NCBI GenBank assembly: GCA_965225945.1
Contig: CBDDBZ010000033.1
Coordinates: 1-64,000, forward strand
Origin: Alphaproteobacteria bacterium
GTDB taxonomy: Bacteria > Pseudomonadota > Alphaproteobacteria > GCA-2731375
Reading direction: 5' to 3'
DNA: 64,000 nucleotides
The notes under the pieces are model-generated. The model ran no database searches, was not told the origin of the DNA, and worked only from the letters and a program-made list of their open reading frames with translations. Positions within the stretch are counted from its first letter, which is position 1, and each line of letters opens with the position of its first letter. Made by a program: the position numbers and the translations under genes. Below, piece by piece: positions 1,937 through 21,689 of the stretch.

Positions 1937-1939
1937 TAG
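818..1939 (+). CDS. IS630-family transposase
   Basis: HTH N-terminus; DDE motifs [22 protein letters not shown] and [10 protein letters not shown]. Confidence 0.93.
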
Positions 1940-3489: not shown

Positions 3490-3740
3490 CTAGGCCGCCG
3501 GCGGCCGGTTCTCGACGCCGGCGGCGCGATGGTAAACACTTGTAAAATCGGGGCGCCAGAAGTATGTTCCTTGCCTATCCGGTTATCACCCACACCCACT
3601 ATATGTAGTGTGTCTCCTTGGACTGCAGGCAAGGGCCGGCGCAGGCGCATTGAGGAGGCGATCCGGCTAATTCTTGATTGTTCTGAAAACCGAACCGGAG
3701 TTTAATTCACGTCACGTACTTAACATCGGGGGACGGAACG

Positions 3741-4049
3741 GTGGCGACCAAGGGAAAAACGAAGAAACCCACGGCCAGACGGGAAGCTGCTGATGAAACG
3801 ACATCGTCTGAGCGATTGACGGCACTAGTCGAAGAAAGCGACGCGCTGGCACGAATCGTTGCGAAGAACCCGTCCGCGCCTGTTAGTCTCCTGCGCGTTT
3901 TGAGTCGCAGCGAAGACGAAGCGACACGCAAGAACGTGATCCTCAATCCGTTTACTTCATATGACGTATTGAGCGAACTTGAAAACCAGTTCACAGAGCT
4001 ATTTGTGAATAATCCGGCACTCGAATCCTACAATTCAATGAAGCTCTGA
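3741..4049 (+). CDS. 102-aa LRV/HEAT-like helical repeat protein (cassette passenger)
   Basis: GTG start after GGGGGACGG; repeated VAKNPSAPVSLL, VILNPFTSYDVL and FVNNPAL units; ORF intact in all four copies. Confidence 0.65.
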   Translation: MATKGKTKKPTARREAADETTSSERLTALVEESDALARIVAKNPSAPVSLLRVLSRSEDEATRKNVILNPFTSYDVLSELENQFTELFVNNPALESYNSMKL

Positions 4050-4188
4050 TTTCCTGGAATATTCCATCGGTGTCGTTCACCTCCGATTTCAGATAAATTT
4101 CAATGAAGTGACGGTCCTTTATGCAACGTGGCGTTTTGCCAAATCCGACTCAATGATTAGGATTTCCACCACGCTAAAGTGTCGCCTA

Positions 4189-5363
4189 ATACCAGGCGAC
4201 ATTGATCAAAACCCATGGGCCCATTGACGCTTGCCGATGGATTTGATTTTGCCCGGTTTATTGATGAGTTTGTTCCAGGCTTCGCAGCAGCAGTCGACGA
4301 TCTCTTCCTCGGATTGGAATACGATGTTGGAGAGCCAGTTGTCTCGCATGTATTGCCAGATGTTTTCGACCGGATTGAGTTCCGGTGAGCGTGGCGGTAT
4401 CGGGACGAGGGTGATGTTGTCTGGAATGGTCAGATCGTCGGTGATGTGCCACCCGGCCTGATCGAGAAGCAGGAGGGCATGAGCGCTGGTGTGGACCTGG
4501 GAGGAGATTTCCTCCAGATGGCGCTGCATGGCCTCGGTGTTGCAGCGCGGGAGCACGAGGGCTGCGCCGGTTCCACGTTCGGGACAGATGGCGCCGAAGA
4601 TGTAGGCCGACTTGGTGCGCTGGTCATGCGGCGCGCGGGGACGGCTGCCGCGTCGGGCCCAGCGCCGGGTGATCTTGTTCTTCTGGCCGACGCGGGCCTC
4701 GTCCTGCCACCAGATTTCTATGTCCGCGCCGTCGGGCAGGCTTTCGCGGACTTGCGAGACCAGCTCGGGGAATTTTTTTTGAAGTCGTCGATGACGCCCG
4801 CCTCCTGGGCATGGTGGCGCGGGCGCGCCGTCAGCTTGGTGAAGCCCATCGCCTTCAACTCGCGGCTCACCGTCCTCTCGCCGAGCGAGATCTGGAACTC
4901 GTCCTGGATCCAGCGCGCCAAATCCTCCAGACGCCAGCGCACCACGCCGTCCGTCACCGGATCCGGTCCGGCATCGACGCGCGCCGCCAGTGCCTCGCGT
5001 TGTGCATCGTCGAGTTTCGACGTCGCCCCGGGGACCTTGCGATCGATCAGGCCATCCGGGCCCGTCGCATTGAAGCGCAACACCCAGTCCCGGATCACCT
5101 GAAGGCCGACGCCGCCGGTCCGCGCCGCATCCCGCCGACGACCGCCATCATGGATCACCGCCAGCGACAACAGACGACGGCTCTGATCCGCGTCTTTCGA
5201 AAGCCGCGCAAGTCGACGAAGTTCGTCCGCGTCATAGTCCTCCCGAAGCTTGATCGCCGCGCCCATCGTCAATCTCCTCCTCAATCCCGAATCACCAGAA
5301 TTGAGTCAGAAATCAACCGTCAGGGAAATCCCAAATGTGAGTCTCCGTCAGCGTCAGTTGGTA
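4189..5363 (-). mobile_element. IS630-family insertion sequence (type B, two ORFs)
   Basis: TA duplicated at 4187-4188 and 5364-5365 relative to gtcgccTAaaagg in the uninterrupted cassette copies; imperfect TIRs (ataccaggcgacattga / tcagcgtcagttggta). Confidence 0.9.
4206..5266 (-). CDS. IS630 transposase, OrfA+OrfB joined by a probable programmed -1 frameshift
   Basis: OrfA HTH (MGAAIKLREDY); A8 run on the minus strand at 4773-4780; -1 frame reads FPEL..WWQDEARVG..LLDQAGWH..SPELNPVENIW. Confidence 0.85.
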
Positions 5364-5574
5364 TAAAAGGCGCTACAATGCCGTCCGAGTCCCTGCTCGG
5401 CATCGCCGGAGATATCTCCGCTTCGACCTGCACCGAGCTTTACTCAGGAAAATGGGTGCACACTACATATAGTGGGTGTGGGTGATAACCGGATAGGCAA
5501 GGTATGTTCTACGTGATCGTTTCACAGTTGTGGCCAGATCATGACGTGTTGGCCGAGCCGTGAACAAAACCAGA

Positions 5575-6604
5575 CCTGATTACGCACTTTACTCAGCCGG
5601 ATTGATGTGGTACAAATCGTGAACATTTGGTGGTTTTTCTGGAGGTTCACAATGCCACGCAACAAGGTTCAGTTCCAGAAGGGGCTCAGCGAGCCGCGTT
5701 TTCGTGAGTTGTACGGTACCGAGGAGCAGTGTCGCGAGGCCCTTTTCCGCTGGCGCTGGCCGGAGGGGTTCTCCTGCCCCCGATGTGGCGCCACGCGCCA
5801 TTGCGAGATCGCCGGGCGAAAACTCTACCAATGCGCCGCCTGCCGTCATCAAGTCTCGCTGACCGCCGGCACGCTCTTCCACGCGACCAAGCTGGCGCTG
5901 ACCCTGTGGTTCTCGGCGATCTATCACATGACCCAATCGAAGAAAGGGATCTCCTCCCTCGAACTCGGCCGCCGGCTCGGCGTCACCCAGACCACGGCCT
6001 GGAAGATCAAGCAGAAACTGATGCAGTCCATGCTCGAGCGCGATGCCAAATTGCCGCTCACCGGGCGGGTGGAGATGGACGATGCCTACCTCGGCGGCCG
6101 GCGTTCCGGGGCCAAGCGCGGCCGGGGCGCGCCGGGCAAGACGCCGTTCGTCGCCGCCGTCCAGACCACGGCGGAGGGCCAGCCCGTGCGCATCAAGCTG
6201 CGCCGCGTCAAGGGCTTCCGCAAGAGCGAGATCGCCAAGATGGCCAAGCGCGACCTGAGCCCTGGGGCGACCGTTTTCAGCGACGGGCTCAACTGCTTCA
6301 CCGCCGTCACCACGCGGGGCTGTGCGCATCATCCGATATCCACCGGCTCCGGACCCGGGGCCGTCGCCGTGCCCGCCTTCAAATGGGTCAACACCACCCT
6401 CGGCAACCTCAAAAACACCCTGCGCGGTACCTACCATGCGATCCGACCCAAGCATGTGCCGCGCTAACTGGCGGCGTTCCAGTACCGATACAACCGCCGC
6501 TACCGGCTCGCCGACATGATCGAAGCCCTCGGCCGCGATGCCCTGCGCACGCCGCCCATGCCATATCGGCTCCTGAAATTGGCTGAGGTTAGTGCGTAAT
6601 CAGG
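5575..6604 (+). mobile_element. IS1595-family insertion sequence (IS1595 group)
   Basis: TIRs cctgattacgcact / agtgcgtaatcagg; 8-bp duplication AAACCAGA (5567-5574, 6605-6612). Confidence 0.92.
5652..6599 (+). pseudogene. IS1595 transposase with a premature stop
   Basis: Zn ribbon (CPRC..CAAC), VEMDDAYLGG, VFSDG, WVNTTLGNLK; TAA at 6465-6467 where Tyr is expected; the frame continues LAAFQYRYNRR to 6599. Confidence 0.85.
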
Positions 6605-6766
6605 AAACCAGAAGAGTGTTGTACTGCTGCTAGGTATGGATACTACGGAGGATCCTCATGTTGAGGTTCATCACGAAAGCTCAATCAAGCGTATATGCCT
6701 TGAAGCGCAAGCTTCGCAAGTACATGTTGGTGTATCGCACCCGGTTCCTTGGGCACAAGTTTGTCT

Positions 6767-7521
6767 CTTGCCTATCCGGTTATCACCCACACCCACTATA
6801 TGTAGTGTGCACCCATTTTCCTGAGTAAAGCTCGGTGCAGGTCGAAGCGGAGATATCTCCGGCGATGCCGAGCAGGGACTCGGACGGCATTGTAGCGCCT
6901 TTTAGGCGACACTTTAGCGTGGTGGAAATCCTAATCATTGAGTCGGATTTGGCAAAACGCCACGTTGCATAAAGGACCGTCACTTCATTGAAATTTATCT
7001 GAAATCGGAGGTGAACGACACCGATGGAATATTCCAGGAAATCAGAGCTTCATTGAATTGTAGGATTCGAGTGCCGGATTATTCACAAATAGCTCTGTGA
7101 ACTGGTTTTCAAGTTCGCTCAATACGTCATATGAAGTAAACGGATTGAGGATCACGTTCTTGCGTGTCGCTTCGTCTTCGCTGCGACTCAAAACGCGCAG
7201 GAGACTAACAGGCGCGGACGGGTTCTTCGCAACGATTCGTGCCAGCGCGTCGCTTTCTTCGACTAGTGCCGTCAATCGCTCAGACGATGTCGTTTCATCA
7301 GCAGCTTCCCGTCTGGCCGTGGGTTTCTTCGTTTTTCCCTTGGTCGCCACCGTTCCGTCCCCCGATGTTAAGTACGTGACGTGAATTAAACTCCGGTTCG
7401 GTTTTCAGAACAATCAAGAATTAGCCGGATCGCCTCCTCAATGCGCCTGCGCCGGCCCTTGCCTGCAGTCCAAGGAGACACACTACATATAGTGGGTGTG
7501 GGTGATAACCGGATAGGCAAG
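6767..7521 (-). mobile_element. Transposase-less cassette, copy 2 (755 bp)
   Basis: Same 43-bp TIRs; duplication GTTTGTCT (6759-6766, 7522-7529). Confidence 0.92.
7042..7350 (-). CDS. 102-aa LRV/HEAT-like passenger protein, copy 2
   Basis: Same translation as 3741..4049. Confidence 0.65.
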   Translation of the reverse strand: MATKGKTKKPTARREAADETTSSERLTALVEESDALARIVAKNPSAPVSLLRVLSRSEDEATRKNVILNPFTSYDVLSELENQFTELFVNNPALESYNSMKL

Positions 7522-7528
7522 GTTTGTC

Positions 7529-8440
7529 TCATGCGGCGGGCCTGAGTGACATCGCGGTGTGCCACGCCTGACGAGCTTGAGCGGGGCTCAGGGAGCCGTT
7601 CTTCTCCACGATCCACTGGGCATTGTACTGTTCGACGAACCCGCGGACGGCGTTCCGCAGCTCCGCGATGTTGCGGTAGATGCGGCCATGGATGATCTGT
7701 TCCTTGAGCGTGCGATTGAACCTCTCGGCGACGCCGTTGGTCTGGGGCTGTTCGACGAAGGCGTAGGACGGCTGGATGCCCCAGAACTTGATCTGGTTGG
7801 TGAAGTGGTCCGACAGATACTGGGAGCCGTGATCCATCCGCAAGGCCAGCCCCCGCGCCGCACCGGCGGAGGTCGAGGCATACAGCCTCGCAAGCCCCAT
7901 GGAGATCGGCTGAAGGGCGGCGAAGCGGTCGCCTCGCTTGCACACATGCCAGCCGACGCACTCGGCGTTCCAATGCTCGATGGCGGTGAATATCCAGCCC
8001 CAGCCGTCGTCCACCGTGAACACCCGAACGCCGTCCGTGCCCCACATGAGGTTGGGGGCATGGGTGATGATCTCACCGACATGGGGATTTCCGCCACGGC
8101 GGCGGCAGCGATGGGGCGAGAGCAGGTTGTTCTCGCGCATCACCCGGAGCACCCGCTTGCGGGAAACACGGATGCCACGACAGACCCGAAGCCGAGCCCA
8201 GACCTTGCGGTGTCCCTCGCCCTCCCAGGGGGATGCCTCCAGGTCGGCCTCGATGGCCACCAGCAGAGCCTCGTCCGAGATCGAGGGCTTCGGTCCCCGG
8301 CGCTTTGCTGGTGGGCGCTCAGCGGTGGCCTGCTGCCGGGATTTCATGGCGTAGAACGAGGAACGGGCAAAACCCCAGGCCGCACAGACCCGCTGGAGGC
8401 CGTAGGCCAAACCCGTGCCGGGAGAGGTGGCGGCACTCAT
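7529..8440 (-). CDS. IS3-like transposase OrfB (integrase core)
   Basis: GEGHRKVWARL, WGTDG, LRMDHGSQY, PQTNGVAERFNRTLKEQ. Confidence 0.9.
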   Translation of the reverse strand: MSAATSPGTGLAYGLQRVCAAWGFARSSFYAMKSRQQATAERPPAKRRGPKPSISDEALLVAIEADLEASPWEGEGHRKVWARLRVCRGIRVSRKRVLRVMRENNLLSPHRCRRRGGNPHVGEIITHAPNLMWGTDGVRVFTVDDGWGWIFTAIEHWNAECVGWHVCKRGDRFAALQPISMGLARLYASTSAGAARGLALRMDHGSQYLSDHFTNQIKFWGIQPSYAFVEQPQTNGVAERFNRTLKEQIIHGRIYRNIAELRNAVRGFVEQYNAQWIVEKNGSLSPAQARQAWHTAMSLRPAA

Positions 8441-8868
8441 CGCCGCGACCTCCGCCGCCCCAAAGGGCCGGACGTCTCCGTCTTGGCCTCCAGCAGTTCC
8501 ACCTGCATGATCAACTCCCCGATCCGCTTCATGGCGATGTCCAGTTCCGCCTTTACCGGATCGCCCTTGCGTTCCTTGAGCGAGGCATCGATCCCGGCGA
8601 TCGCCTTCTCACGCCACTGCTCGAGCCGGAAAATCTCCACGCCCAACTGCCGCGACAAAAGTTCCACCGGCTCGCCACGCAAAAGCCGCAGGGCAACCTC
8701 ACGCTTGCGCGTCACCGTCCACCGCTGGCCAAGTCCCAGCGGGCCTGCCGGCGAAACCTGGCCCGGGGAAAACGTGGACGAGCCAAGCTCGCCCTCGTTT
8801 ACCACAGGCCCATCAACAGCAACTTTGTTCTCAAAATTGTCGGTCATGTTCCGGTCCTCCTTGGACAC
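8437..8868 (-). CDS. IS3-like OrfA (HTH)
   Basis: RWTVTRKREVALRLLRGEPVELLSRQLGV HTH plus coiled coil; ATGA overlap with OrfB. Confidence 0.8.
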   Translation of the reverse strand: MSKEDRNMTDNFENKVAVDGPVVNEGELGSSTFSPGQVSPAGPLGLGQRWTVTRKREVALRLLRGEPVELLSRQLGVEIFRLEQWREKAIAGIDASLKERKGDPVKAELDIAMKRIGELIMQVELLEAKTETSGPLGRRRSRR

Positions 8869-8879
8869 TTCGATTAAGC

Positions 8880-9633
8880 CTTGCCTATCCGGTTATCACC
8901 CACACCCACTATATGTAGTGTGCACCCATTTTCCTGAGTAAAGCTCGGTGCAGGTCGAAGCGGAGATATCTCCGGCGATGCCGAGCAGGGACTCGGACGG
9001 CATTGTAGCGCCTTTTAGGCGACACTTTAGCGTGGTGGAAATCCTAATCATTGAGTCGGATTTGGCAAAACGCCACGTTGCATAAAGGACCGTCACTTCA
9101 TTGAAATTTATCTGAAATCGGAGGTGAACGACACCGATGGAATATTCCAGGAAATCAGAGCTTCATTGAATTGTAGGATTCGAGTGCCGGATTATTCACA
9201 AATAGCTCTGTGAACTGGTTTTCAAGTTCGCTCAATACGTCATATGAAGTAAACGGATTGAGGATCACGTTCTTGCGTGTCGCTTCGTCTTCGCTGCGAC
9301 TCAAAACGCGCAGGAGACTAACAGGCGCGGACGGGTTCTTCGCAACGATTCGTGCCAGCGCGTCGCTTTCTTCGACTAGTGCCGTCAATCGCTCAGACGA
9401 TGTCGTTTCATCAGCAGCTTCCCGTCTGGCCGTGGGTTTCTTCGTTTTTCCCTTGGTCGCCACCGTTCCGTCCCCGATGTTAAGTACGTGACGTGAATTA
9501 AACTCCGGTTCGGTTTTCAGAACAATCAAGAATTAGCCGGATCGCCTCCTCAATGCGCCTGCGCCGGCCCTTGCCTGCAGTCCAAGGAGACACACTACAT
9601 ATAGTGGGTGTGGGTGATAACCGGATAGGCAAG
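8880..9633 (-). mobile_element. Transposase-less cassette, copy 3 (754 bp)
   Basis: Same TIRs; flanks GATTAAGC (8872-8879) and GATTAAAC (9634-9641), one mismatch. Confidence 0.9.
9155..9463 (-). CDS. 102-aa LRV/HEAT-like passenger protein, copy 3
   Basis: Same translation; a 1-bp shorter upstream G run explains the longer 124-aa ORF call. Confidence 0.65.
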   Translation of the reverse strand: MATKGKTKKPTARREAADETTSSERLTALVEESDALARIVAKNPSAPVSLLRVLSRSEDEATRKNVILNPFTSYDVLSELENQFTELFVNNPALESYNSMKL

Positions 9634-10055
9634 GATTAAACCAATTCTGTGTCCAAGGAAATCGGGTCCGACTCACAAGTACATGTTGGACGATTTTGGC
9701 GCCACCGCGATCGAATACGGTTTGATCGCCGCCGGTATCGCCGTCGCCCTCATCGCGGCGGTGTTCGCCATCGGTGACGAACTGTCCAACTTCTTTATGG
9801 CTGTGCAGACGAAGCTGGAAGACTCCATGAGCTAACTCGCTTAGCCTAGTTGGTGGCAACCGCCACCACGTCGCCGTCTCGCTTCAAGGAGCCGGTGGCG
9901 AGGGATTGACGAGGGCGCGTCGGGGTCGGCGCGTCCTCGTACCGTTCAAATTCCGACGGATCGCCATTGGGCGGTTCGGGCATTCGGGGCCGCATGGGTC
10001 GGCGCGGGGCGCGACACGCCCGTGTTTCGGGGCAGCGACGAGGGGGGTGACCGGC

Positions 10056-10574: not shown

Positions 10575-10596
10575 TCGACAGCATTTCGACGGGATA

Positions 10597-11734: not shown

Positions 11735-11785
11735 TATTCGGATGCAATTTCTGTAGAGTTCCATGGTACACGTTCTGTAGAGGTC

Positions 11786-13033
11786 CATGGTACACGACGG
11801 CATTTACGTAGGACGTTGAAAAGGTTGTAGGATTCCCGATTCACTCCACGACGAGTCAAGAGGGAAATCATGCGAGACAACCCGATCAACGCCCTGCGTG
11901 AGACGCTACGATGCGGCTTCGCCTTTCGCAAGAGCCGTCTGGAGAGCCTTTGCGTCTTGGTCTTCGGCGTGTTCGTCGCCCGGACGGTGAACCTCTCTCA
12001 CTTGGCCTGCCACTTTCCGGGGCGCGCGCGATCCAGCTCCAACTATCGGCGCCTGCAACGGTTTTTCGAGCAAGTCGATTTCGATTACGATCGCCTCGCC
12101 GAGTTCCTGGTCGCGATGATGGGGCTCCAGGCGGGGCCGTGGCGGCTGACCATGGACCGGACCAACTGGCGGCTGGGTCGCCGCGACGTCAACATCTTGA
12201 TGATCGGCATCGTCAACCGCGCCATCGCCATTCCCGTGTGCTGGCGGGTGCTCGACAAGGCGGGCAATTCCAATACCAAGGAGCGGATCGCGATCCTCGA
12301 ACACGTCCTCCGGCTCTTCGGGGTCGACAAGATCGCCAGCCTCCTGGCCGACCGGGAATTCATCGGCGACGCCTGGCTGGCATGGTTGCAGGAAAAGGCC
12401 ATCCCCTTTCACATCCGCATCCGATCCAACATCAAGATCGCCAACACGCGTGGTCGCATGGTCAAGGCGAGGGAGCTGTTTCGCGACCTCAAACCCGGGG
12501 AAAGCCGCATCCTCTCCAACGCCAGGCGCCTCTCGGAGGCCAGAAAACCCAAGGCCAGGCCCGTCTTCGTCGCCGCGCTCCATCTCAAGACCGGCGAACT
12601 GTTGATCGTCGTGACCAACGACGCGCCCGAGGAGGCCTTGGCCATCTACGCCCAGCGCTGGCAAAGCGAGACCCTCTTCGCCGCCTTGAAAACCCGTGGC
12701 TTCAACCTCGAAGACACCCACATGACCGACCCGGAGCGCATCTCCAAGCTCACCGCCGTCCTTTCCATCACCTTCTGCTGGGCGCACAAAGTCGGCTTCT
12801 GCTGGGCGCACAAAGTCGGCGATTGGCTCCACGAGGCCGAGCCGATCCGCCTCAAAACCCACAAAAGGATGGCAAAATCCATCTTCCGATACGGTTTCGA
12901 GTGGATTAAGGCGACAGCTCGTCAATCCTATCGACAGGCGTCAAGCCATTGAGCTGATTCGTTTCCTCGTCCCCGGAAAACCACCAGTCCAGGTGCCCAG
13001 GCCAAAGCCAGCATGAACGAGTCGTGTACTGTG
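11786..13033 (+). mobile_element. IS4-family insertion sequence, copy 1
   Basis: Ends catggtacacgac / gtcgtgtactgtg; 9-bp duplication GTAGAGTTC (11753-11761, 13034-13042) with a 24-bp tandem duplication of the left junction. Confidence 0.85.
11870..12952 (+). CDS. IS4-family transposase, probably damaged
   Basis: MDRTNW, LLADREFIG, YAQRWQSETLFAALK; 8-aa tandem duplication FCWAHKVG; likely +1 shift near 12909 (the other frame reads RRQLVNPID..KPA*). Confidence 0.8.
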   Translation: MRDNPINALRETLRCGFAFRKSRLESLCVLVFGVFVARTVNLSHLACHFPGRARSSSNYRRLQRFFEQVDFDYDRLAEFLVAMMGLQAGPWRLTMDRTNWRLGRRDVNILMIGIVNRAIAIPVCWRVLDKAGNSNTKERIAILEHVLRLFGVDKIASLLADREFIGDAWLAWLQEKAIPFHIRIRSNIKIANTRGRMVKARELFRDLKPGESRILSNARRLSEARKPKARPVFVAALHLKTGELLIVVTNDAPEEALAIYAQRWQSETLFAALKTRGFNLEDTHMTDPERISKLTAVLSITFCWAHKVGFCWAHKVGDWLHEAEPIRLKTHKRMAKSIFRYGFEWIKATARQSYRQASSH

Positions 13034-13195
13034 GTAGAGTTCGGTAAATCAAAACGATACTCAAGTAACTTCATTCGACAAGTGAATGATTTCTTGAGTG
13101 TTGACGGAGAATCTACATTGGCAGCATAATCCTCGGGGCTGTCGCGGAATCGCTCCGTGCGACACGCTCGATGGGCCGCTCGGGAGATAATCGTC

Positions 13196-15061
13196 GTGAA
13201 TGTAGCTCGCATCGTACTGATCGTCGTAGCTCTCGCCGCGGCAGGCTTGACGGTATTTCTAATTCGAAATTACCTGGCGGACCAAGTGCCGCCGCCGCAG
13301 CAGCAGCCGGTGGCGACGATCGCCTCGATCGATGTGCTTGTCGCCGAGCGTGATCTGCCGGCCGGCACCATCCTCAATCCCGAGGCCTTTCGTTGGCAGC
13401 CTTGGCCAAAGAAGGCGATCAACGAGAACTATGTCCAGCGCAAGGACGGAACCGACCCGATCAAGGAGTTGACCGGGGCGGCGGTGAAGCGAATCATCAC
13501 CGCCGGCGATCCGATCATTCGCCAGAAGCTCGTCTCGCCCGATACGCCGGGCTTCCTCGCCGGCGTGCTGCCGCCGGGCACGCGCGCCATCAGCATTCCC
13601 ATCAGCGGCCCCGAGGCGGCCTCCGGCTTCATCCTGCCCGGTAACCTGGTCGACGTCGTGCTGACGCAGCAGCACGGCGTGACGCTCACCAGCGGTGCGG
13701 AGGCCAGCCGGCTGGTCAGCGAGACGATCATGGAGAAACTCCGCATTCTCGCCATCGATCAGAGTGTCGACGACAGTGGCGCGCACGCCCGTATCGGCAC
13801 GACGGTGACCGTCGGCGTGTCGCCCAAGGAAGCCGAGATAATCACAGTGGCGAAACGTATGGGAACGCTCTCGCTGCTGCTCCGCAGCCTGACCGAGCCG
13901 GAGACCAAGATGGCGTCGGACGGGACCATGACGAAGCCTCCGGTGCGGGCCATCCCCTACACGCAAAACACCGAGGTCAGCAAGTTCCTCATCATGGAGA
14001 AGTCCATCCGGCCTCGTTACATGGTCACGACCCGGGATATCCCCGCCGGCTCTCTGCTGCGCGATCTGGACATAGGATGGGACATCCTCGATCAGGGTGC
14101 GCCCAGCGAAGGTCTGATCCTGGCCGGCACGCCGATCGCTCCCCTGCGCGGCGCCTATATCAAGACGCCGATCAAGAGGGGCGGGGCGATCAGGGAGGGC
14201 GATGTCATCAGGCCGCGCGAGCACGGCTTCATCATTGCCGCCCTGCAGCCGGGATTGCGTGCGGTCAGCATCACCATTTCGAACCTTACCGCCGTATCGG
14301 GTTATATCTCGCCGGGTGATCGCGTCGACATCATGCTGACCCAGACGGTCGGCGGCGGTGGCGCCGACAGTGGGATCGCCCAGCTCGTCACGCGAAAGTT
14401 CACCGAGACCGTGTTCCGTGACATGCGTCTGCTGGCGATCGACAGGCGCGTGGATCAGGCCACCGGGCGGCCATCCGCCGGCGGAACGGCGACGTTCGAG
14501 GTCACGCCCCGCGAGGCCGAGGAGTTGGCCCTGGCCCAGACCATGGGGCAGATGTCGCTGGTTCTCCGCTCCGTGCCGGCCGCCGAGGCGCCAGGGGAGC
14601 CGTTCAGGCTGCCGGAAGGCGAGCGGCTGCCTTACACCACCGACATCTCCTTCTCTCGCGGCTTGATCAATCTTCTCGTCTACGGCACCAAATCCGAGCC
14701 TGAACTGGTGCGGGCGCGGCAGTCGCGCCGAGGCGCGGGCATCGGCATCACGACACCGCAAAGGCGCATCATTCGCACCGCGCCCCGGATCGCGTCGGGC
14801 GCCGAGGCGCCCGCCTCGCTCGGGCCGGCGCTCCCGCCGTCCAGCCGAACGCCACGGCCGACCGGCGTCGCGCCCGGCCTGACGGCCGAGCTGCCGGCGG
14901 TGCCCAAACTTCAGCCGCGGTCGGAAGAACCGTCGAGCGCCGGCAAGGACATCGCGCCGGAAAGCGAGGTCGCCTTGGAACCGGAGACCGTCGAGCCGGC
15001 AGAGCCGTCGATCATTCGGATCTATCGAGGTGGTGGTCTGTCAACGGTACAAGTCGAGTAG
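13196..15061 (+). CDS. cpaB: Flp pilus assembly protein CpaB/RcpC with a duplicated SAF+RcpC module
   Basis: N-terminal TM; VLVAERDLPAGT..PPGTRAISI..SGFILPGNLVDVVLT..RILAIDQ, then again MVTTRDIPAGS..PGLRAVSI..SGYISPGDRVDIMLT..RLLAIDR; ends IRIYRGG. Confidence 0.88.
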   Translation: MNVARIVLIVVALAAAGLTVFLIRNYLADQVPPPQQQPVATIASIDVLVAERDLPAGTILNPEAFRWQPWPKKAINENYVQRKDGTDPIKELTGAAVKRIITAGDPIIRQKLVSPDTPGFLAGVLPPGTRAISIPISGPEAASGFILPGNLVDVVLTQQHGVTLTSGAEASRLVSETIMEKLRILAIDQSVDDSGAHARIGTTVTVGVSPKEAEIITVAKRMGTLSLLLRSLTEPETKMASDGTMTKPPVRAIPYTQNTEVSKFLIMEKSIRPRYMVTTRDIPAGSLLRDLDIGWDILDQGAPSEGLILAGTPIAPLRGAYIKTPIKRGGAIREGDVIRPREHGFIIAALQPGLRAVSITISNLTAVSGYISPGDRVDIMLTQTVGGGGADSGIAQLVTRKFTETVFRDMRLLAIDRRVDQATGRPSAGGTATFEVTPREAEELALAQTMGQMSLVLRSVPAAEAPGEPFRLPEGERLPYTTDISFSRGLINLLVYGTKSEPELVRARQSRRGAGIGITTPQRRIIRTAPRIASGAEAPASLGPALPPSSRTPRPTGVAPGLTAELPAVPKLQPRSEEPSSAGKDIAPESEVALEPETVEPAEPSIIRIYRGGGLSTVQVE

Positions 15062-15065
15062 GCCC

Positions 15066-16451
15066 ATGATGTCGTCAACAGCATTCCGTTTTCTCGGCGT
15101 GGCGCTTCGCGTTGCCGCCGTCACGGCGATCCTGGCAACGGGCGCGACGGCCCAGGACGACCCGGGCGCGCAACTGAGCCCGATCGAACTGGAGAGCGTG
15201 GCGCACGGTCAGTCCGTCACGGTGGCGGTCGGCAAGGCGCGTATCATCCGCTTGTCCACCGATGTTCGCGATGTCCTGGTCGCCAATCCGGGCGTCGCCG
15301 ACGTCATCGTCAAGACGCCGCGAACCATCTACATCCTGGGCGGTGGGGTCGGCGCGACGAACGCCTTCTTCTTCGATGGCGACGGCAACGAGATCGCCCG
15401 GCTGGAGATCAGGGTCCAGATCGATACGGTCGGCATAACCGATGCGATCGAGTCCCTGATGCCGAACCTCGACGTCAAGGTCACCGCGGTCGCCAACGAC
15501 GTCTTTCTGACGGGTAGCGTGCGCTCCGCCCGGATATCGGAAAACCTTCAACAAATCGTCACGCGTTACATCGGCGGCGGCCGGGTCGTGAACCTGATGT
15601 CGATCGTCGAGGATCAGCAGGTTCTGCTCCAGGTGCGCATCGCCGAGGTCAGCCGCGGCGCGCTGAAGGACGTGGGGATCAATTTTCAGGCGGTCGCGAA
15701 CACCGGGAAATTAGCGGTTGCGTTGGCGACGGTGGGCGGGTCTGCCGGCTTCCTCACCGGCGCCGCGAGCGTAACGAACGGCAACGACAGTCTCACCGGG
15801 ATCTTGAACGCGTTGGAGACCAACGGCCTCGTCAGGACCCTCGCCGAGCCGACCCTGACCGCGATGTCGGGCGAAAACGCGAACTTCCTGGCGGGTGGCG
15901 ATGTTCCCTTTCCGGTGGCGCAGGAGGGGGGCGCGATCGGGGTTATCTTCCGCAGCTTCGGCGTCGGCCTGAATTTCACCCCCACGGTACTCGATTCCGG
16001 GCGAATTTCGATCCGCCTGTCGACCGAGGTGAGCGCGCCGGATGCCGCCACGACGGTCGGCGGCTTGTTCGGTTTCAGTGTCCGGCGGGCGGAGACCACG
16101 GTGGAGGTGCCCTCGGGCGGCAGCATCGTGATCGGCGGTTTGCTGCAGGAATCCCTGACGACCGATATCGAGGGTCTGCCCTGGGTCAAGAATGTTCCGA
16201 TCCTCGGCGCGTTGTTCCGCAACAATACCATCAATCGGACCGAGCGTGAGCTGATGGTGGCCATCACCGCATATCTGGTCAAACCCGTGGAGCGGACCGA
16301 TATTCGCTACCCGACCGATACCGTCGTGCCGCCGAGCGACGGCGAGCTGTTTCTGCTGGGTCGCCTCGAGGCGATATACGGCGGCAGCGAGGATGGACCG
16401 GGCGCCGCGACGACGTCGTTGAAGGGGCCGATCGGCCACATCGTACAATGA
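15066..16451 (+). CDS. cpaC: Tad secretin CpaC/RcpA
   Basis: DVLVANPGVADV, QQVLLQVRIAEVSR, LAEPTLTAMSGENANFLAGG, PILGALFR. Confidence 0.93.
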   Translation: MMSSTAFRFLGVALRVAAVTAILATGATAQDDPGAQLSPIELESVAHGQSVTVAVGKARIIRLSTDVRDVLVANPGVADVIVKTPRTIYILGGGVGATNAFFFDGDGNEIARLEIRVQIDTVGITDAIESLMPNLDVKVTAVANDVFLTGSVRSARISENLQQIVTRYIGGGRVVNLMSIVEDQQVLLQVRIAEVSRGALKDVGINFQAVANTGKLAVALATVGGSAGFLTGAASVTNGNDSLTGILNALETNGLVRTLAEPTLTAMSGENANFLAGGDVPFPVAQEGGAIGVIFRSFGVGLNFTPTVLDSGRISIRLSTEVSAPDAATTVGGLFGFSVRRAETTVEVPSGGSIVIGGLLQESLTTDIEGLPWVKNVPILGALFRNNTINRTERELMVAITAYLVKPVERTDIRYPTDTVVPPSDGELFLLGRLEAIYGGSEDGPGAATTSLKGPIGHIVQ

Positions 16452-16476
16452 GACCCCCTTGCGAGAGAGAGGTGCC

Positions 16477-17151
16477 ATGCGAAGGCTTTTGAAACTGTCC
16501 ATCGTCTGCGGCGTGGGCTTCCTCGTCGCCGGTTGTACGGGAGGCGGGTTCGGTAACGATGGCCGCCATGTCAGCGACGTGGAGCGGGACCATCCGATCA
16601 CCGTCACCTCTAGCCTCGTCAGCGAGGAGATCGCCGTGGCGCCGGGCGCGCGCGAGCTGGGCGCCCCGGATGCCGCCAAGCTGTCGCGTTTGGTCGGCGA
16701 TTTCGTCCGCCGCGGCGGTGGCATCTTCGAGATCGCCGTGCCGGTCGCGGGCGGCGATGTGGCCGGGGCCGAGGCCCGCGCCCAGGTGGTCAAGGATCAG
16801 GTGATGAAGGGCGGTGCCCATGATCGCGAGATCAAGGTGCGATTCAGCGATATTGCGGGCAGTGGCCCTGTCGTCGTAAGCTATGAGGCGTTTATGGTGA
16901 CGCCGCCGAAATGCCGACCGACGGAGAAGAACTCAACCTTCAATGTGCGTAACACGGTTCAAGACACATATGGTTGCGTGACGCAACATAATCTGGCCAT
17001 TATGCTGTCTCGACCGGCGGATCGGGCGAAGAGCGCCGCGAGGAGCCGTTTCGAAGCGACCCGACGGTCCAGGGTCGTCACGGACCATAGGGCCGGCGAG
17101 CAACCGTCCTCGAGCGGCGGCGTGTCGGCCGGTCCCGCCAGAGGGTTTTAA
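16477..17151 (+). CDS. cpaD: CpaD pilus assembly lipoprotein
   Basis: Lipobox LVAGC, HPITV, YGCVTQHNLAIMLSRPAD; lies between cpaC and cpaE. Confidence 0.82.
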   Translation: MRRLLKLSIVCGVGFLVAGCTGGGFGNDGRHVSDVERDHPITVTSSLVSEEIAVAPGARELGAPDAAKLSRLVGDFVRRGGGIFEIAVPVAGGDVAGAEARAQVVKDQVMKGGAHDREIKVRFSDIAGSGPVVVSYEAFMVTPPKCRPTEKNSTFNVRNTVQDTYGCVTQHNLAIMLSRPADRAKSAARSRFEATRRSRVVTDHRAGEQPSSSGGVSAGPARGF

Positions 17152-17247
17152 GTCCGTCTAGGTCCGTCTAGGCCGGGTTGCGCGGACAAGAATACAGGTG
17201 CTGCCATTATTAGAGTCAACATACATGCCTGGACCCTGGACGAGACG

Positions 17248-18411
17248 ATGCTGAATCTCGTGCAGGAGGGGTTGAGCGATCGCAAGCTCTCGAGGTGCGT
17301 CGTGCAGACCGAGATCGGCGGCCTGGACGCGGCCGTTCACCACTACGCATCAAATCAGACACCGCACATCGTCATCATCGAGTCGACGGAAATCGGCGAC
17401 GAGTTGATGATGGGACTGGAGAAGCTGGCGGAGGTTTGTGATTCCGGCACCAACGTCGTCGTCATGGGTGATTCGAACGACATCGAGCTCTATCGCGATC
17501 TGGTCAGACGCGGCATCAGCGAGTATCTGGTGAAGCCGGTGGCGCCACGCCGCCTGTTCGACACCGTCGTCGAAATCTGCATGGATCCGGATGCGGCGCC
17601 GATGGGGCGCATGATGGCCTTCATCGGCAGTCGCGGCGGGGCCGGGAGCAGCACGTTGGCGCACAACGTCGGCTGGTTCCTCGGTCAGGAATACGAGGAA
17701 GAGGTCGTCATCGTCGATCTCGACATTCCCTTCGGGACCGCCGGACTGGCTTTCAATCTCGAGACGCCGCAGGGTATCCACACCGCGCTCGCCGAGCCGG
17801 ACCGTTTGGACGACGTCCTACTCGAGCGGTTCCTGGCGGAGTATGACGAGTATGTCCGCCTGCTGGTGTCGCCGGCCGCGCTCGACGGCGAGGAGGGCCT
17901 CTACATGGATGCCCTGGATCCACTGTTGGAACTGGTCCGCCGGCGCTCGAGTTTCGTTGTCATCGATCTGCCGCACCGTTGGGCGCCTTGGACCCAGCAA
18001 TTGCTGTTGGACGCCGACGACGTCGTGGTCGTCAGTTCGCTCGATCTGGCCGGGCTGCGGGATAGTCGTCATCTGACGTCGCGACTTAAGGAGTTGCGAG
18101 GCGACCAGGCGCCGGTGCATTTGGTCTTGAACCATGCCGGGGCTTTCAAGAAATCGGAGCTGACTCCGCGAGATTTCGAGAATGCGGTCGAAATGGCACC
18201 GGAAATCGTGCTACAACATGATCCGAACCTGTTTGGTGCGGCATCGAACAATGGGCAAATGCTGGGGGAAGTGAATAGACGCCACAAGATCTCGGAGCAG
18301 GTTCGCCAGCTGGCGATGAAGCTGGGTGGACGCCAACCGAGGGAGCAAAAGAAAAAAGGCGTTATGGGAATGCTGTCGAAGTCCAACAAGGTGAAGTCTA
18401 AGGCAAGCTGA
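17248..18411 (+). CDS. cpaE: CpaE/TadZ (receiver-like plus MinD-like ATPase); start uncertain
   Basis: NDIELYRDLVRRGISEYLVKP, GSRGGAGSSTLAHN, DLDIPFGTAGL, LFGAASNNGQML. Confidence 0.9.
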   Translation: MLNLVQEGLSDRKLSRCVVQTEIGGLDAAVHHYASNQTPHIVIIESTEIGDELMMGLEKLAEVCDSGTNVVVMGDSNDIELYRDLVRRGISEYLVKPVAPRRLFDTVVEICMDPDAAPMGRMMAFIGSRGGAGSSTLAHNVGWFLGQEYEEEVVIVDLDIPFGTAGLAFNLETPQGIHTALAEPDRLDDVLLERFLAEYDEYVRLLVSPAALDGEEGLYMDALDPLLELVRRRSSFVVIDLPHRWAPWTQQLLLDADDVVVVSSLDLAGLRDSRHLTSRLKELRGDQAPVHLVLNHAGAFKKSELTPRDFENAVEMAPEIVLQHDPNLFGAASNNGQMLGEVNRRHKISEQVRQLAMKLGGRQPREQKKKGVMGMLSKSNKVKSKAS

Positions 18412-18454
18412 GGATGTTCGGTAAGCGTAACGCGCCTCCATCGATCGATCAAGC

Positions 18455-19208
18455 CTTGCCTATCCGGTTATCACCCACACCCACTATATGTAGTGTGCAC
18501 CCATTTTCCTGAGTAAAGCTCGGTGCAGGTCGAAGCGGAGATATCTCCGGCGATGCCGAGCAGGGACTCGGACGGCATTGTAGCGCCTTTTAGGCGACAC
18601 TTTAGCGTGGTGGAAATCCTAATCATTGAGTCGGATTTGGCAAAATGCCACGTTGCATAAAGGACCGTCACTTCATTGAAATTTATCTGAAATCGGAGGT
18701 GAACGACACCGATGGAATATTCCAGAAATCAGAGCTTCATTGAATTGTAGGATTCGAGTGCCAGATTATTCACAAATAGCTCTGTGAACTGGTTTTCAAG
18801 TTCGCTCAATACGTCATATGAAGTAAACGGATCGAGGATCACGTTCTTGCGTGTCGCTTCGTCTTCGCTGCGACTCAAAACGCGCAGGAGACTAACAGGC
18901 GCGGACGGGTTCTTCGCAACGATTCGTGCCAGCGCGTCGCTTTCTTCGACTAGTGCCGTCAATCGCTCAGACGATGTCGTTTCATCAGCAGCTTCCCGTC
19001 TGGCCGTGGGTTTCTTCGTTTTTCCCTTGGTCGCCACCGTTCCGTCCCCCGATGTTAAGTACGTGACGTGAATTAAACTCCGGTTCGGTTTTCAGAACAA
19101 TCAAGAATTAGCCGGATCGCCTCCTCAATGCGCCTGCGCCGGCCCTTGCCTGCAGTCCAAGGAGACACACTACATATAGTGGGTGTGGGTGATAACCGGA
19201 TAGGCAAG
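18455..19208 (-). mobile_element. Transposase-less cassette, copy 4 (754 bp)
   Basis: Same TIRs; duplication GATCAAGC (18447-18454, 19209-19216). Confidence 0.92.
18729..19037 (-). CDS. 102-aa LRV/HEAT-like passenger protein, copy 4
   Basis: Two substitutions relative to the other copies (LNP>LDP, NPA>NLA). Confidence 0.62.
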   Translation of the reverse strand: MATKGKTKKPTARREAADETTSSERLTALVEESDALARIVAKNPSAPVSLLRVLSRSEDEATRKNVILDPFTSYDVLSELENQFTELFVNNLALESYNSMKL

Positions 19209-21674: not shown

Positions 21675-21689
21675 GCGGGAGGGTTTATC

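What the first reader, a model, noticed from the sequence alone, without database searches (positions are those of the whole stretch)
3570..19208. Four copies of a transposase-less 755-bp cassette carrying an LRV/HEAT-like mini-protein, all inside one pilus locus
Seen: copies at 3570-5501 (+, split by IS630), 6767-7521, 8880-9633 and 18455-19208 (-). They are near-identical, each has 43-bp perfect TIRs and its own 8-bp duplication (GTATGTTC, GTTTGTCT, GATTAARC, GATCAAGC), so these are four independent recent insertions. The interior is lower in GC than the host, has no transposase, and keeps an intact 102-aa ORF with xxNPxxPxxxL repeats behind a possible promoter (TTGTTC-17-TTTAAT). Knowledge, recalled: 8-bp duplications and ends matching nnnGcnTATC characterise the ISSod11 group of the IS1595 family, which is known to form passenger-carrying non-autonomous derivatives. 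Inference: the segment running into the right TIR (NAVR/SLLGIAGDISASTCTELYSGKWVH..*) is the C-terminal remnant of such a transposase, so this is a captured-gene cassette moved in trans. I know of no described cassette with an LRV-type cargo; the protein could be neutral or could act on transposition or a host protein.
Basis: partly seen in the sequence, partly recalled or inferred. Interest (0 to 1): 0.82.

Follow-up and report, generated by a model that had tools for sequence, protein, structure and literature searches.

The report
Protein-coding mini-transposon copied about seventy times
A 755-base jumping-DNA cassette with no transposase of its own, carrying a small conserved repeat protein, has spread to roughly seventy places in this bacterial genome, most likely by borrowing the enzyme of a related insertion sequence.

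Summary
All four window copies exist with 43-bp perfect inverted ends, 8-bp duplications and a 102-aa ORF. They are not special to the pilus locus: the genome holds 69 full-length BLAST hits (67 true copies), 47 with perfect duplications.

The cassette is a mobile insertion cassette derived from an IS1595-family element. Its 3' part is a decayed transposase C-terminus. The same genome carries about ten copies of a 1105-bp autonomous IS, closest named relative ISAcr1 (82% aa). The cassette ends match each end of that IS (35/43) better than its two ends match each other (31/43). In 401 genomes sampled from the class, the same three carry both cassette ORF and this IS; 398 showed neither. A congener has the empty cpaE-cpaF site with a single GATCAAGC.

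The cargo is a genuine LRV_2 protein (Pfam 34.1 bits; AF2 pLDDT 90). Related cassettes of about 540 bp are widespread in metagenomes. Between genomes dN/dS is 0.17-0.36 and 38 of 41 ORFs are intact. Within this genome copies decay neutrally (9 nonsynonymous : 1 synonymous).

So this is a known kind of element in an unusual form: high-copy and coding for a selected mini-protein. That protein's function is not shown; my leading guess is that it aids the cassette's own spread.

The parts
3570..4189 (+). Cassette copy 1, left part (cassette positions 1-620), including left TIR 3570-3612 and ORF 3741-4049
   Evidence: 100% identical to copy 2 over 620-621 nt (I1). The ORF is listed.
4190..5363 (-). 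IS630-type element inserted into copy 1 (not part of the cassette)
   Evidence: ORFs 4206-4556 and 4718-5284 (minus) hit DDE_3 and HTH_33/HTH_32. The duplicate region on contig C22 lacks this insertion.
5364..5501 (+). Cassette copy 1, right part (cassette positions 618-755) with right TIR 5459-5501
   Evidence: The sequence is shown.
3562..3569 (.). Target-site duplication of copy 1, GTATGTTC (second copy at 5502-5509)
6767..7521 (-). Cassette copy 2, identical to the genomic consensus; TIRs 6767-6809 and 7479-7521; duplication GTTTGTCT at 6759-6766 and 7522-7529
7042..7350 (-). 102-aa LRV_2 mini-protein gene of copy 2 (cassette positions 172-480)
   Evidence: Pfam LRV_2 34.1 bits against a cut-off of 27. 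AF2 pLDDT 90.4. 234 homologues. dN/dS 0.17-0.36.
6786..7022 (-). Decayed C-terminal remnant of an IS1595-family transposase (cassette positions 500-736), running into the right TIR
   Evidence: tblastn against resident transposase residues 279-338. The translation is open for 79 residues. Cassette 630-755 is 77% identical in DNA to IS 981-1105.
7385..7413 (-). Promoter-like TTGTTC-17-TTTAAT upstream of the ORF (unverified)
   Evidence: Located. Not flagged by the consensus scan. Only partly conserved among 41 cassettes.
8880..9633 (-). Cassette copy 3 (754 bp; one G lost from the G-run before the start codon); ORF equivalent 9155-9463; flanks GATTAAGC / GATTAAAC (7 of 8)
18455..19208 (-). Cassette copy 4 between cpaE and cpaF; ORF 18729-19037 carries N69D and P92L; duplication GATCAAGC at 18447-18454 and 19209-19216
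   Evidence: The empty orthologous site with a single GATCAAGC in congener G001 is shown. N69 is invariant and P92 nearly invariant in alignment A2.

Best explanation
The element is a non-autonomous mobile insertion cassette (MIC) of the IS1595 family.

Structure: two identical 43-bp ends of the ISAcr1 type enclose a short leader, a 102-codon gene for an LRV_2 alpha-solenoid mini-protein, and the decayed last ~60 codons of a transposase gene.

How it most likely works:
- It has no transposase. It is most likely cut and pasted by the transposase of a co-resident 1105-bp ISAcr1-like insertion sequence.
- That enzyme makes 8-bp duplications at a palindromic G-W-T-S-S-A-W-C target.
- This has produced about 70 copies in this genome, and the pair has moved between bacterial families.

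The mini-protein:
- It is a real gene kept by purifying selection along the lineages that spread. Individual resident copies decay neutrally.
- From that contrast I infer it serves the cassette's own propagation or establishment. It could bind the borrowed transposase or the element's DNA through its acidic repeat body and basic N-terminal tail.

Shown: anatomy, copy number, true insertion, family of the ends, existence and co-occurrence of the partner IS, fold class, and selection on the ORF.
Inferred: mobilisation in trans.
Speculative: what the protein does.

My odds: MIC mobilised in trans about 0.85; cargo functional about 0.8; cargo serves the element about 0.3-0.35.
For: Copy number and insertion:
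- 69 hits of at least 700 bp; 47 of 69 have perfect 8-bp duplications.
- Empty orthologous site in G001.
- Palindromic target consensus from 47 sites.

Partner IS:
- The resident IS is 1105 bp with duplications GTTCGATC and GTAGGAAT.
- Its 339-aa transposase hits DDE_Tnp_IS1595 (128 bits), Zn_ribbon_IS1595 (52 bits) and NF033547 (192.6 bits).
- The closest named element is ISAcr1 at 82% aa.

Matching ends:
- Cassette against resident IRL 35/43, against IRR 35/43, against ISAcr1 IRR 39/43.
- The resident IS's own two ends match each other only 31/43.
- A transposase C-terminal remnant sits in the cassette.

Co-occurrence:
- In one sample of 401 class genomes the cassette ORF is in 3. The IS transposase at E<=1e-150 is in the same 3.
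- The G213 cassettes are 98.8-99.6% identical to ours.
- Two independent cassette-8bp-IS tandems exist.

Cargo:
- Pfam LRV_2. AF2 pLDDT 90.4, pTM 0.81. Best solved match 1lrv_A, Z 7.8. Small phage LRV proteins reach TMq 0.65-0.68.
- 234 homologues, mostly exactly 102 aa.
- 50 of 66 related loci show both IS1595-type ends around the ORF.
- dN/dS 0.17-0.36 in 15 pairs.
- Diversity by codon position: 0.19, 0.11 and 0.27 for positions 1, 2 and 3, against 0.31 in the leader. 38 of 41 ORFs are intact.
- The start codon is ATG, GTG or TTG in 41 of 41.
- Within the genome: 9 nonsynonymous to 1 synonymous, with density 0.033/bp inside and 0.045/bp outside the ORF.
- The cassette sequence is present in metatranscriptome assemblies of 3 studies.
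Against: - No transposition assay exists. The partner's ends are similar to the cassette's, not identical (35/43), and a closer partner may exist elsewhere.
- The co-occurrence rests on only three genomes from two families. They may simply share a habitat and mobilome.
- G029 holds at least 150 copies of the IS but only two cassette fragments. So the IS does not need the protein, and IS abundance does not predict cassette abundance.
- A diffusible protein could be used by broken copies too, so element-level selection needs cis-preference or invasion bottlenecks. Neither is shown.
- Nothing links LRV_2 to transposition. No hit in PHROGs, PADLOC, NCBIfam or PDB sequences.
- Fold matches are within the background range for helical repeats (note).
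- RNA-library contigs do not prove transcription.
- 8 of 67 copies have truncated or extended ORFs yet keep good ends.
Confidence: 0.6

Rival explanations
1. The mini-protein is a cargo that benefits the host, for example a repeat protein acting on a host or partner protein. The cassette is merely its vehicle. Selection acts on bacteria that keep at least one working copy.
For: - Purifying selection between genomes is equally expected under host-level selection.
- Known MICs are described as carrying cargo genes unrelated to transposition (passages in PMC3129680; listings for qnr-bearing MICs).
- The cassette-holding RNA runs include sponge metagenomes. That habitat is known, from recall only, for symbionts rich in repeat proteins.
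- Small LRV proteins also occur in phages, which fits an accessory cargo of mobile elements.
Against: - About 70 copies is far more than a useful gene needs.
- The ORF is found in only 3 of 401 sampled class genomes, which argues against a broadly useful function.
- The same cassette family occurs across many different metagenome records, always inside the transposon ends (50 of 66 loci). It is never seen as a resident chromosomal gene of this length class.
- There is no paralogue outside cassettes in this genome.
Confidence: 0.2
2. The mini-protein is a regulator that damps or redirects the borrowed transposase. It would be a copy-number controller or a competitor against the autonomous IS rather than a helper.
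For: - Alpha-solenoid repeat proteins are typical protein binders (general knowledge).
- In this genome cassettes outnumber intact IS copies about 7 to 1. Several IS copies are rearranged, as 1631-bp composite and 1121-bp start-less forms.
- In G029, where no intact cassette was found, the IS reached at least 150 copies.
Against: - That is three genomes only and no mechanism is tested.
- An inhibitor encoded by a parasite of the IS would also curb the cassette's own spread.
- The copy numbers have many other possible causes.
Confidence: 0.12
3. The ORF is a neutral captured gene fragment, the 5' end of a larger LRV-protein gene, with no function. It is still intact only because the family is young.
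For: - Cyanobacterial homologues (43-56% identity) are the N-termini of 300-690-aa proteins, so a capture origin is plausible.
- Within this genome substitutions look neutral.
Against: - Cassettes up to about 30% diverged in protein keep the 102-codon frame without indels.
- dN/dS is 0.17-0.36 at dS up to about 1.3.
- Codon position 2 varies least and the leader varies most.
Confidence: 0.05
4. The copies are assembly duplicates or chimeras of a metagenome-assembled genome.
For: - The genome is a 39-contig assembly with 5.58% estimated contamination.
- At least one region (window 1-6482) is present twice, on C33 and C22.
Against: - 47 copies have their own perfect and different 8-bp duplications.
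- Only a few full-length copies share a flank.
- The empty site in a congener is documented.
- Near-identical cassettes occur in an independent 4-contig genome, G213, and in public runs.
Confidence: 0.01

Closest known systems
Mobile insertion cassettes (MICs), e.g. MIC231 derived from IS231 in Bacillus cereus
   Same: IS-type inverted ends, no transposase, one or more passenger ORFs, target duplications, and activation by a cognate transposase from a related IS in the same genome. The definition comes from passages read in PMC3129680 and PMC3281130.
   Different: - It derives from the IS1595 family rather than IS231/IS4.
- It has a MITE-like copy number of about 70 per genome.
- The cargo is a 102-aa repeat protein conserved across a wide cassette family, not an enzyme or resistance gene. 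The MIC231 cargo is recalled, not read.
ISAcr1 (IS1595 family; Acidiphilium cryptum plasmids), the closest named autonomous relative
   Same: - Ends CTTGCCTATCCGGTT... and an 8-bp duplication (ATATATTG); length 1080 bp.
- Its transposase is 82% identical to the resident partner IS.
- Its right end matches the cassette TIR at 39 of 43 positions.
   Different: ISAcr1 encodes its own transposase and no LRV gene. The cassette keeps only a decayed remnant of the last ~60 codons.
IS1595-family 'transporter IS' with passenger genes
   Same: Same IS family. IS copies with passenger genes unrelated to transposition are cited for this family in a passage of PMC3129680, referring to Siguier et al. 2009, which I did not read.
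   Different: Those elements keep their transposase. No element with both the LRV gene and a transposase was seen in 77 related loci or among 12 longer homologues.
MITEs (miniature inverted-repeat transposable elements)
   Same: Non-autonomous, high copy number, same ends as a parent IS, moved in trans.
   Different: MITEs are generally non-coding (general knowledge). This element carries a gene under purifying selection.
Small stand-alone LRV proteins of phages and the Azotobacter LRV protein (PDB 1lrv)
   Same: Same fold class. 1lrv_A gives Z 7.8, rmsd 3.9 over 89 residues. Phage proteins of 108-125 aa give TMq 0.65-0.68 at 25-33% identity. The ORF is a Pfam LRV_2 member.
   Different: None of these has a known function, and none is known to sit on a transposon. 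The solved-structure match lies within the background range for helical repeats.

Membership tests
Mobile insertion cassette (MIC) | Terminal inverted repeats of an insertion-sequence type | tested here: met
   43-bp perfect TIRs. They match ISAcr1 IRR at 39/43 and each end of the resident IS at 35/43.
Mobile insertion cassette (MIC) | No transposase gene inside the element | tested here: met
   The only IS1595 signal in the cassette is a decayed remnant of the last ~60 residues. The only Pfam hit of the ORF is LRV_2/LRV.
Mobile insertion cassette (MIC) | Carries at least one passenger ORF | tested here: met
   A 102-aa ORF is present in 59 of 67 copies. It is conserved across 38 of 41 related cassettes.
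Mobile insertion cassette (MIC) | Flanked by target-site duplications like the parent IS | tested here: met
   47 of 69 hits have perfect 8-bp duplications. The resident IS and ISAcr1 also make 8-bp duplications. An empty site is shown.
Mobile insertion cassette (MIC) | Mobilised by a cognate transposase supplied in trans | not testable with these tools
   A candidate partner IS exists and co-occurs with the cassette. Proof needs an assay.
IS1595 family (derivative of) | 8-bp target duplication | tested here: met
   The family feature was read in a passage of PMC8101967.
IS1595 family (derivative of) | Transposase with N-terminal Zn ribbon and DDE_Tnp_IS1595 domain | tested here: not met
   The cassette itself has none, so it is a derivative and not a member IS. 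The partner IS has both domains and hits NF033547.
IS1595 family (derivative of) | Ends homologous to those of a named family member | tested here: met
   39/43 to the ISAcr1 right end.
ISSod11 subgroup of IS1595 | Ends fitting nnnGcnTATC, and transposase clustering with ISSod11 | not testable with these tools
No text holding the motif was found, no ISSod11 sequence was at hand, and no tree was built.
MITE | Small and non-coding | tested here: not met
   The element is 755 bp (related forms 516-560 bp) and carries a selected ORF.
Pfam LRV_2 (PF25591) | Score above the curated gathering threshold | tested here: met
   34.1 bits against a cut-off of 27. Homologues carry PF25591 in precomputed annotation.
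LRV fold (PDB 1lrv type alpha/3-10 solenoid) | Structural similarity clearly above background | tested here: inconclusive
   1lrv_A ranks first at Z 7.8, but the tool notes such Z values are common for helical repeats. Foldseek against PDB gave no match at E<=0.001.

The most novel reading that the evidence does not exclude
The cassette is a hyperparasite with its own tool. The LRV mini-protein would be an element-encoded factor that captures the ISAcr1-like transposase, or shields or marks the cassette DNA, so that the borrowed enzyme acts preferentially on cassette ends. That would explain how a transposase-less element outnumbers its autonomous partner about 7 to 1 and why the gene is kept wherever the cassette spreads. 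It would be a bacterial non-autonomous transposon encoding a dedicated hijacking protein. A related bold option is that small LRV proteins on this cassette and on phages form a shared class of mobile-element accessory proteins, for example counter-defence factors or DNA mimics.
Probability: 0.25. Interest if true: 0.8.

Novelty: new variant of a known kind. Interest (0 to 1): 0.55.

Why it matters
Non-autonomous bacterial transposons are usually seen either as non-coding MITEs or as rare cassettes ferrying a useful host gene. This family behaves like a MITE. It has about 70 copies here, crosses family boundaries at 99% identity, and is common in metagenomes. Yet it keeps a small protein gene under purifying selection.

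- If the protein acts for the element, it gives a tractable case of conflict between a parasite and its parasite in bacterial transposons, and a first functional handle on the uncharacterised LRV_2 domain.
- Practically, such cassettes fragment assemblies: many homologues sit on contigs about the length of the element.
- They also disturb operons. In this window the Tad pilus locus is interrupted by one cassette copy and two other insertion sequences.

Tried and rejected
- Complex prediction (transposase plus mini-protein) was answered 'not available', so the binding idea is untested.
- Rfam found nothing on the cassette at E<=1.
- PHROGs, PADLOC and NCBIfam gave no hit for the ORF. PDB sequence search gave only chance-level hits. 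Foldseek against PDB gave nothing at E<=0.001.
- Earlier findings of this scan: none, by place or by sequence.
- Autonomous element carrying both the LRV gene and a transposase: 0 of 77 related loci. None of the 12 longer homologues carried IS1595 domains. In L040 the cassette is simply interrupted by an IS3-type element.
- Source gene in the host: no paralogue outside cassette copies.
- Genic versus intergenic insertion preference: the stop-free-frame proxy does not discriminate in a 66% GC genome, so I dropped it.
- A first within-genome substitution count was inflated by misaligned indel copies. I replaced it with exact-length copies only: 45 of 48 used, with 3 dropped for more than 12 differences.
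- The two 82-84% 'full-length' hits (C28:77653-78519, C29:77311-78160) are rearranged or degenerate variants without the ORF. I excluded them from the 67.
- RNA-library contigs cover the cassette but cannot show transcription, strand or level.
- Literature searches found no description of an LRV-carrying cassette. ISfinder itself could not be queried.
- The plasmid collection holds only distant cyanobacterial relatives of the ORF.

Full report
1. OBSERVATION

The four copies are real and lie at the stated coordinates.
- The repeat finder on window 1-25000 recovers them with 43-44-nt perfectly complementary ends (I14-I18).
- The three unsplit copies align with 98% mean column identity including flanks. 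Inside the element, copy 3 differs only by one missing G. Copy 4 differs by three substitutions and a 1-bp deletion.
- The flanking 8-mers are GTATGTTC (copy 1), GTTTGTCT (copy 2), GATTAAGC/GATTAAAC (copy 3; 7 of 8) and GATCAAGC (copy 4).
- Each copy has the 102-codon ORF.
- Copy 1 is interrupted at cassette position 620 by a 1174-bp IS630-type element, whose ORFs hit DDE_3 and HTH domains.
- The cassette is 51% GC, with ORF GC3 55%. The contigs are 64-68% GC.

2. THE TITLE IS TOO NARROW

The window is contig C33:1-64000 of a 6.27-Mb, 39-contig genome.
- BLAST of the 755-bp unit against the whole genome gives 313 HSPs. Of these, 69 are at least 700 bp and 51 are between 60 and 699 bp.
- Two of the 69 are 82-84% rearranged variants without the ORF, which leaves 67 true copies.
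- 47 of the 69 have perfect 8-bp duplications, nearly all different from one another. Several that lack one share half-sites with another copy (for example C24:55786 and C24:60415), as expected after recombination between copies.
- A census of end sequences finds about 80 left and 70 right cassette ends.
- Only a few full-length copies share a flank.
- Window 1-6482 is present a second time, inverted, on contig C22 at 99-99.9% identity but without the IS630 in copy 1. Copy 1 and the C22 copy are therefore one insertion seen twice, either as a strain variant or as a segmental duplication.

In the window, positions 1-13000 are a pile of insertion sequences:
- IS630 at 815-1939
- a DDE_Tnp_1 element at 2114-3439
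- an unrelated IS1595-family transposase at 5607-6467
- IS3 at 7529-8868
- IS630 at 10665-11726
- a second DDE_Tnp_1 element at 11870-12952

The Tad/Cpa genes are cpaA at 9906-10574 and cpaB to tadC at 13157-22661. Only copy 4 lies within the operon (cpaE | cassette | cpaF), and copy 3 abuts cpaA.

3. THE INSERTION IS REAL

The congeneric genome G001 lacks the cassette and has the orthologous cpaE-cpaF spacer at about 80% identity. There the sequence reads straight through a single GATCAAGC. The window has GATCAAGC, then the cassette, then GATCAAGC.

The 47 perfect duplications give a palindromic target consensus G-W-T-S-S-A-W-C. G occupies position 1 in 35 of 47, T position 3 in 33 of 47, and C position 8 in 31 of 47.

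4. WHAT THE CASSETTE DERIVES FROM

Oriented with the ORF forward, the element reads:
- TIR, positions 1-43
- leader, 44-171
- ORF, 172-480
- a 232-bp tail, 481-712
- TIR, 713-755

Positions 500-736 form an open 79-residue frame. It aligns to residues 279-338 of an IS1595-family transposase encoded elsewhere in the genome, at 39% over 79 columns and about 70% over the last 31-32 residues.

That transposase belongs to a 1105-bp insertion sequence.
- An example is C26:2024-3128 with duplication GTTCGATC. Another is C34:125574-126691 with GTAGGAAT.
- Its 339-aa protein hits DDE_Tnp_IS1595 (128 bits), Zn_ribbon_IS1595 (52 bits) and NCBIfam NF033547 (192.6 bits against a cut-off of 75).
- About ten copies with a full-length reading frame are present.
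- Cassette 630-755 is 77% identical to IS 981-1105, and cassette 1-32 is 94% identical to IS 1-32.
- In annotated plasmids the closest named relative is ISAcr1 of Acidiphilium ('IS1595-like element ISAcr1 family transposase', 82% aa). ISAcr1 is 1080 bp, has the duplication ATATATTG, and begins CTTGCCTATCCGGTT at both ends.

Over 43 positions the cassette end matches:
- the ISAcr1 right end at 39
- the resident IS left end at 35
- the resident IS right end at 35

The two ends of the resident IS match each other at only 31. An enzyme that must accept both of its own ends should therefore tolerate the cassette's.

The family features come from passages of PMC8101967: 8-bp duplications, an N-terminal zinc finger and a DDE domain. 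The ISSod11 subgroup and its end motif are recalled only. A text search for the motif found nothing.

5. ASSOCIATION WITH THE PARTNER

- In an even sample of 401 genomes of the class (G000 included), the cassette ORF profile matches 3: G000, G029 and G213.
- The resident transposase at E<=1e-150 matches 3 of the same 401, and they are the same three. The other 398 showed neither.
- G029 and G213 belong to another family than G000. Their transposases are 99-100% identical to ours, and the G213 cassettes are 98.8-99.6% identical. The pair has therefore moved horizontally and recently.

Two cautions apply.
- Three genomes are few, and they may share a habitat.
- Copy numbers do not track each other. 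G029 has at least 150 IS copies but only two cassette fragments. G213 has about 30 IS copies and at least 6 cassettes. G000 has about 10 IS copies and about 67 cassettes.

Twice in G000 a cassette and an IS sit head to tail, separated by exactly one 8-mer (C26 and C32). In C26 the same 8-mer, GTTCGATC, lies on all three junctions.

Among 40 nearer relatives, DNA matches of any kind occur in 7, mostly to the shared end region. Near-identical cassette fragments occur in G002, G017 and G029.

6. THE CARGO PROTEIN

- The ORF scores 34.1 bits on Pfam LRV_2 (cut-off 27). It is sub-threshold on LRV.
- AlphaFold2 on a 60-row alignment gives pLDDT 90.4 and pTM 0.81, with eight short helices.
- Against solved structures, Foldseek finds nothing at E<=0.001. 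The exhaustive aligner puts 1lrv_A first (Z 7.8, rmsd 3.9 A, 89 residues), followed by designed alpha-repeat and HEAT-like proteins. That range is one the tool itself calls common for helical repeats.
- Against viral models, the best matches are small phage 'leucine rich repeat variant' proteins of 108-125 aa (TMq 0.65-0.68, 25-33% identity). The protein-atlas look-up likewise places the ORF among LRV_2 clusters, some of them phage-rich.
- The first 14 residues carry 6 basic and no acidic residues. The remaining 88 carry 8 basic and 15 acidic.
- No function is attached to any of these relatives.

7. THE CASSETTE FAMILY IS WIDESPREAD AND THE GENE IS SELECTED

- The protein search returns 234 homologues at E<=0.001 among 251 candidates. 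Most are exactly 102 aa and 74-90% identical, and many sit on contigs of 450-1500 bp, about the size of the element.
- Twenty of them align in 102 columns with a single one-residue gap.
- I fetched 15 loci from genome contigs, mostly alphaproteobacterial MAGs, and 62 from metagenome contigs.
- In the 66 loci I examined for ends, 50 have IS1595-type ends on both sides of the ORF, 13 on one side and 3 on neither. 16 of the 50 have identical 8-bp flanks.
- The common form is 516-560 bp, with the ORF about 171 bp from the left end and 60-73 bp from the right. Three loci have the 754/755-bp form.
- L039 carries a diverged long form with a transposase remnant. The long form, which keeps the remnant, therefore looks ancestral to the short one.
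- Nei-Gojobori dN/dS over 15 pairs of six ORFs is 0.17-0.36, at dS 0.13-1.3.
- Across 41 distinct cassettes, nucleotide diversity is 0.13-0.15 in the TIRs, 0.31 in the leader, 0.19, 0.11 and 0.27 at codon positions 1, 2 and 3, and 0.35 just after the stop. 38 of 41 ORFs are intact.
- The start is ATG in 35, GTG in 4 and TTG in 2.

Inside G000 the picture is different.
- 45 exact-length copies (of 48; 3 dropped for more than 12 differences) show 10 distinct substitutions in the ORF. Nine are nonsynonymous and one is synonymous.
- The substitution density is 0.033/bp inside the ORF against 0.045/bp outside.
- 59 of 67 copies keep a 102-aa ORF and 8 are truncated or extended.
- Copy 4 of the window carries N69D and P92L, at an invariant and a nearly invariant column.

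So resident copies drift, while the lineages that spread keep the protein.

8. ORIGIN OF THE CARGO

- The more distant homologues (43-56% identity) in cyanobacterial genomes are the N-terminal ~100 residues of 300-690-aa LRV proteins. This is consistent with capture of a 5' gene fragment long ago.
- There is no paralogue outside cassettes in G000.
- No element combining the LRV gene with a transposase was seen in 77 related loci.
- None was seen among the 12 longer homologues either. Those look like sporadic read-through products, and none has IS1595 domains.

9. EXPRESSION

- Eleven RNA-labelled runs from three studies, including sponge metatranscriptomes, hold 78-87% of the cassette's sampled words.
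- Contigs of three such runs cover cassette positions about 14-742 as one or a few unitigs.
- These are contigs from RNA libraries. They show presence, not transcription, strand or level.
- The proposed promoter is only a weak consensus match.
- A G-rich Shine-Dalgarno-like motif precedes the start in most cassettes.

10. INTERPRETATION

Firmly supported: this is a mobile insertion cassette derived from an ISAcr1-like IS1595-family element. It is inserted by a DDE-type cut-and-paste or copy mechanism with 8-bp duplications. It has no transposase and coexists with a suitable donor of that enzyme. MICs and their activation in trans are an established concept (passages of PMC3129680, and PMC3281130).

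Unusual: the MITE-like abundance combined with a small gene under purifying selection. Drift within a genome together with constraint between genomes is what one expects if the protein matters when the element propagates or founds a new population. Host-level selection for one working copy would give the same pattern.

My leading guess (about 0.3) is an element-serving accessory factor acting on the transposase or on element DNA. Next come a host-acting cargo (about 0.2) and a transposition regulator (about 0.12). A neutral passenger is disfavoured by the codon data. The complex-prediction tool that could have given a first hint on transposase binding was unavailable.

11. NOVELTY

- Seven text searches of the open library gave no paper describing an LRV-carrying cassette or a MIC of this family. 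For most papers I saw only listings. I read passages in PMC3129680, PMC8101967 and PMC3281130.
- I rate it a new variant of a known kind, of moderate interest. It would rank higher if the protein proves to be a hijacking or counter-defence factor.

Noticed in passing
L055:271-1901 (G000:C1:44070-45700); also G000:C14:57696-59326, C15:7573-9203, C33:95821-97478, C38:177697-179354: The partner IS also occurs as a 1631/1658-bp composite: the 1105-bp IS plus an inverted copy of its 3' half ending in a second right end. The whole unit is flanked by its own 8-bp duplication, so it seems to transpose using two right ends. C1 and C15 share flanks and may be one site assembled twice.
   Followed up: partly
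L021:2283-3403 (G000:C19:59701-60821) and G000:C34:188810-189930: A 1121-bp form of the same IS has roughly 130-bp inverted ends and lacks the transposase start codon and first 14 residues. It is probably a second non-autonomous derivative. Each copy has its own 8-bp duplication.
   Followed up: partly
L054:262-2129 (G000:C26:1261-3128); also G000:C32:60181-62048: A cassette and the autonomous IS lie head to tail, separated by exactly 8 bp. In C26 the same 8-mer, GTTCGATC, sits at all three junctions. This suggests repeated insertion into the duplicated target, or targeting next to an existing end.
   Followed up: partly
window 1-6482 versus G000:C22:1-5732: This stretch is present twice in the assembly, inverted, at 99-99.9% identity. 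The C22 version lacks the IS630 inside cassette copy 1 and differs near window 1804-1996. It is either a strain variant in a metagenome-derived genome or a recent segmental duplication.
   Followed up: partly
window 815-12952: There is a dense nest of at least seven insertion sequences of four families: IS630 three times, DDE_Tnp_1 twice, IS3, and an unrelated IS1595 member. Two of them separate cpaA (9906-10574) from cpaB (13157-15061), so the Tad pilus locus is probably disabled or re-wired.
   Followed up: partly
G029 (whole genome) and G213, loci L145, L146, L149, L150: The same IS (99-100% aa identity) is present in at least 150 copies in a 5.0-Mb single-contig genome of another family and in about 30 copies in a third genome. 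This is a massive, recent, horizontally shared IS expansion.
   Followed up: partly
window 13157-15061: The CpaB/RcpC homologue is 634 aa with two RcpC-domain stretches. From memory, these proteins are shorter.
   Followed up: no
window 6955-6928 (minus strand): A promoter-like site (TTGCCA-16-TAGGAT) lies in the cassette's 3' tail and points outward through the right end. It could drive flanking genes. It is only a consensus match.
   Followed up: no
window 378-413 and 629-664: A 36-nt inverted repeat, 94% complementary, encloses 215 bp. It may be another small non-autonomous element.
   Followed up: no
L041:2438-5297, L042:2147-3379, L043:2495-4567, L044:2462-3361: Cyanobacterial relatives of the cargo are N-termini of 300-690-aa LRV proteins. 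In L041 two such genes stand in tandem, followed by an ORF with a P-loop (GAPGIGKS) motif, seen by eye only.
   Followed up: no
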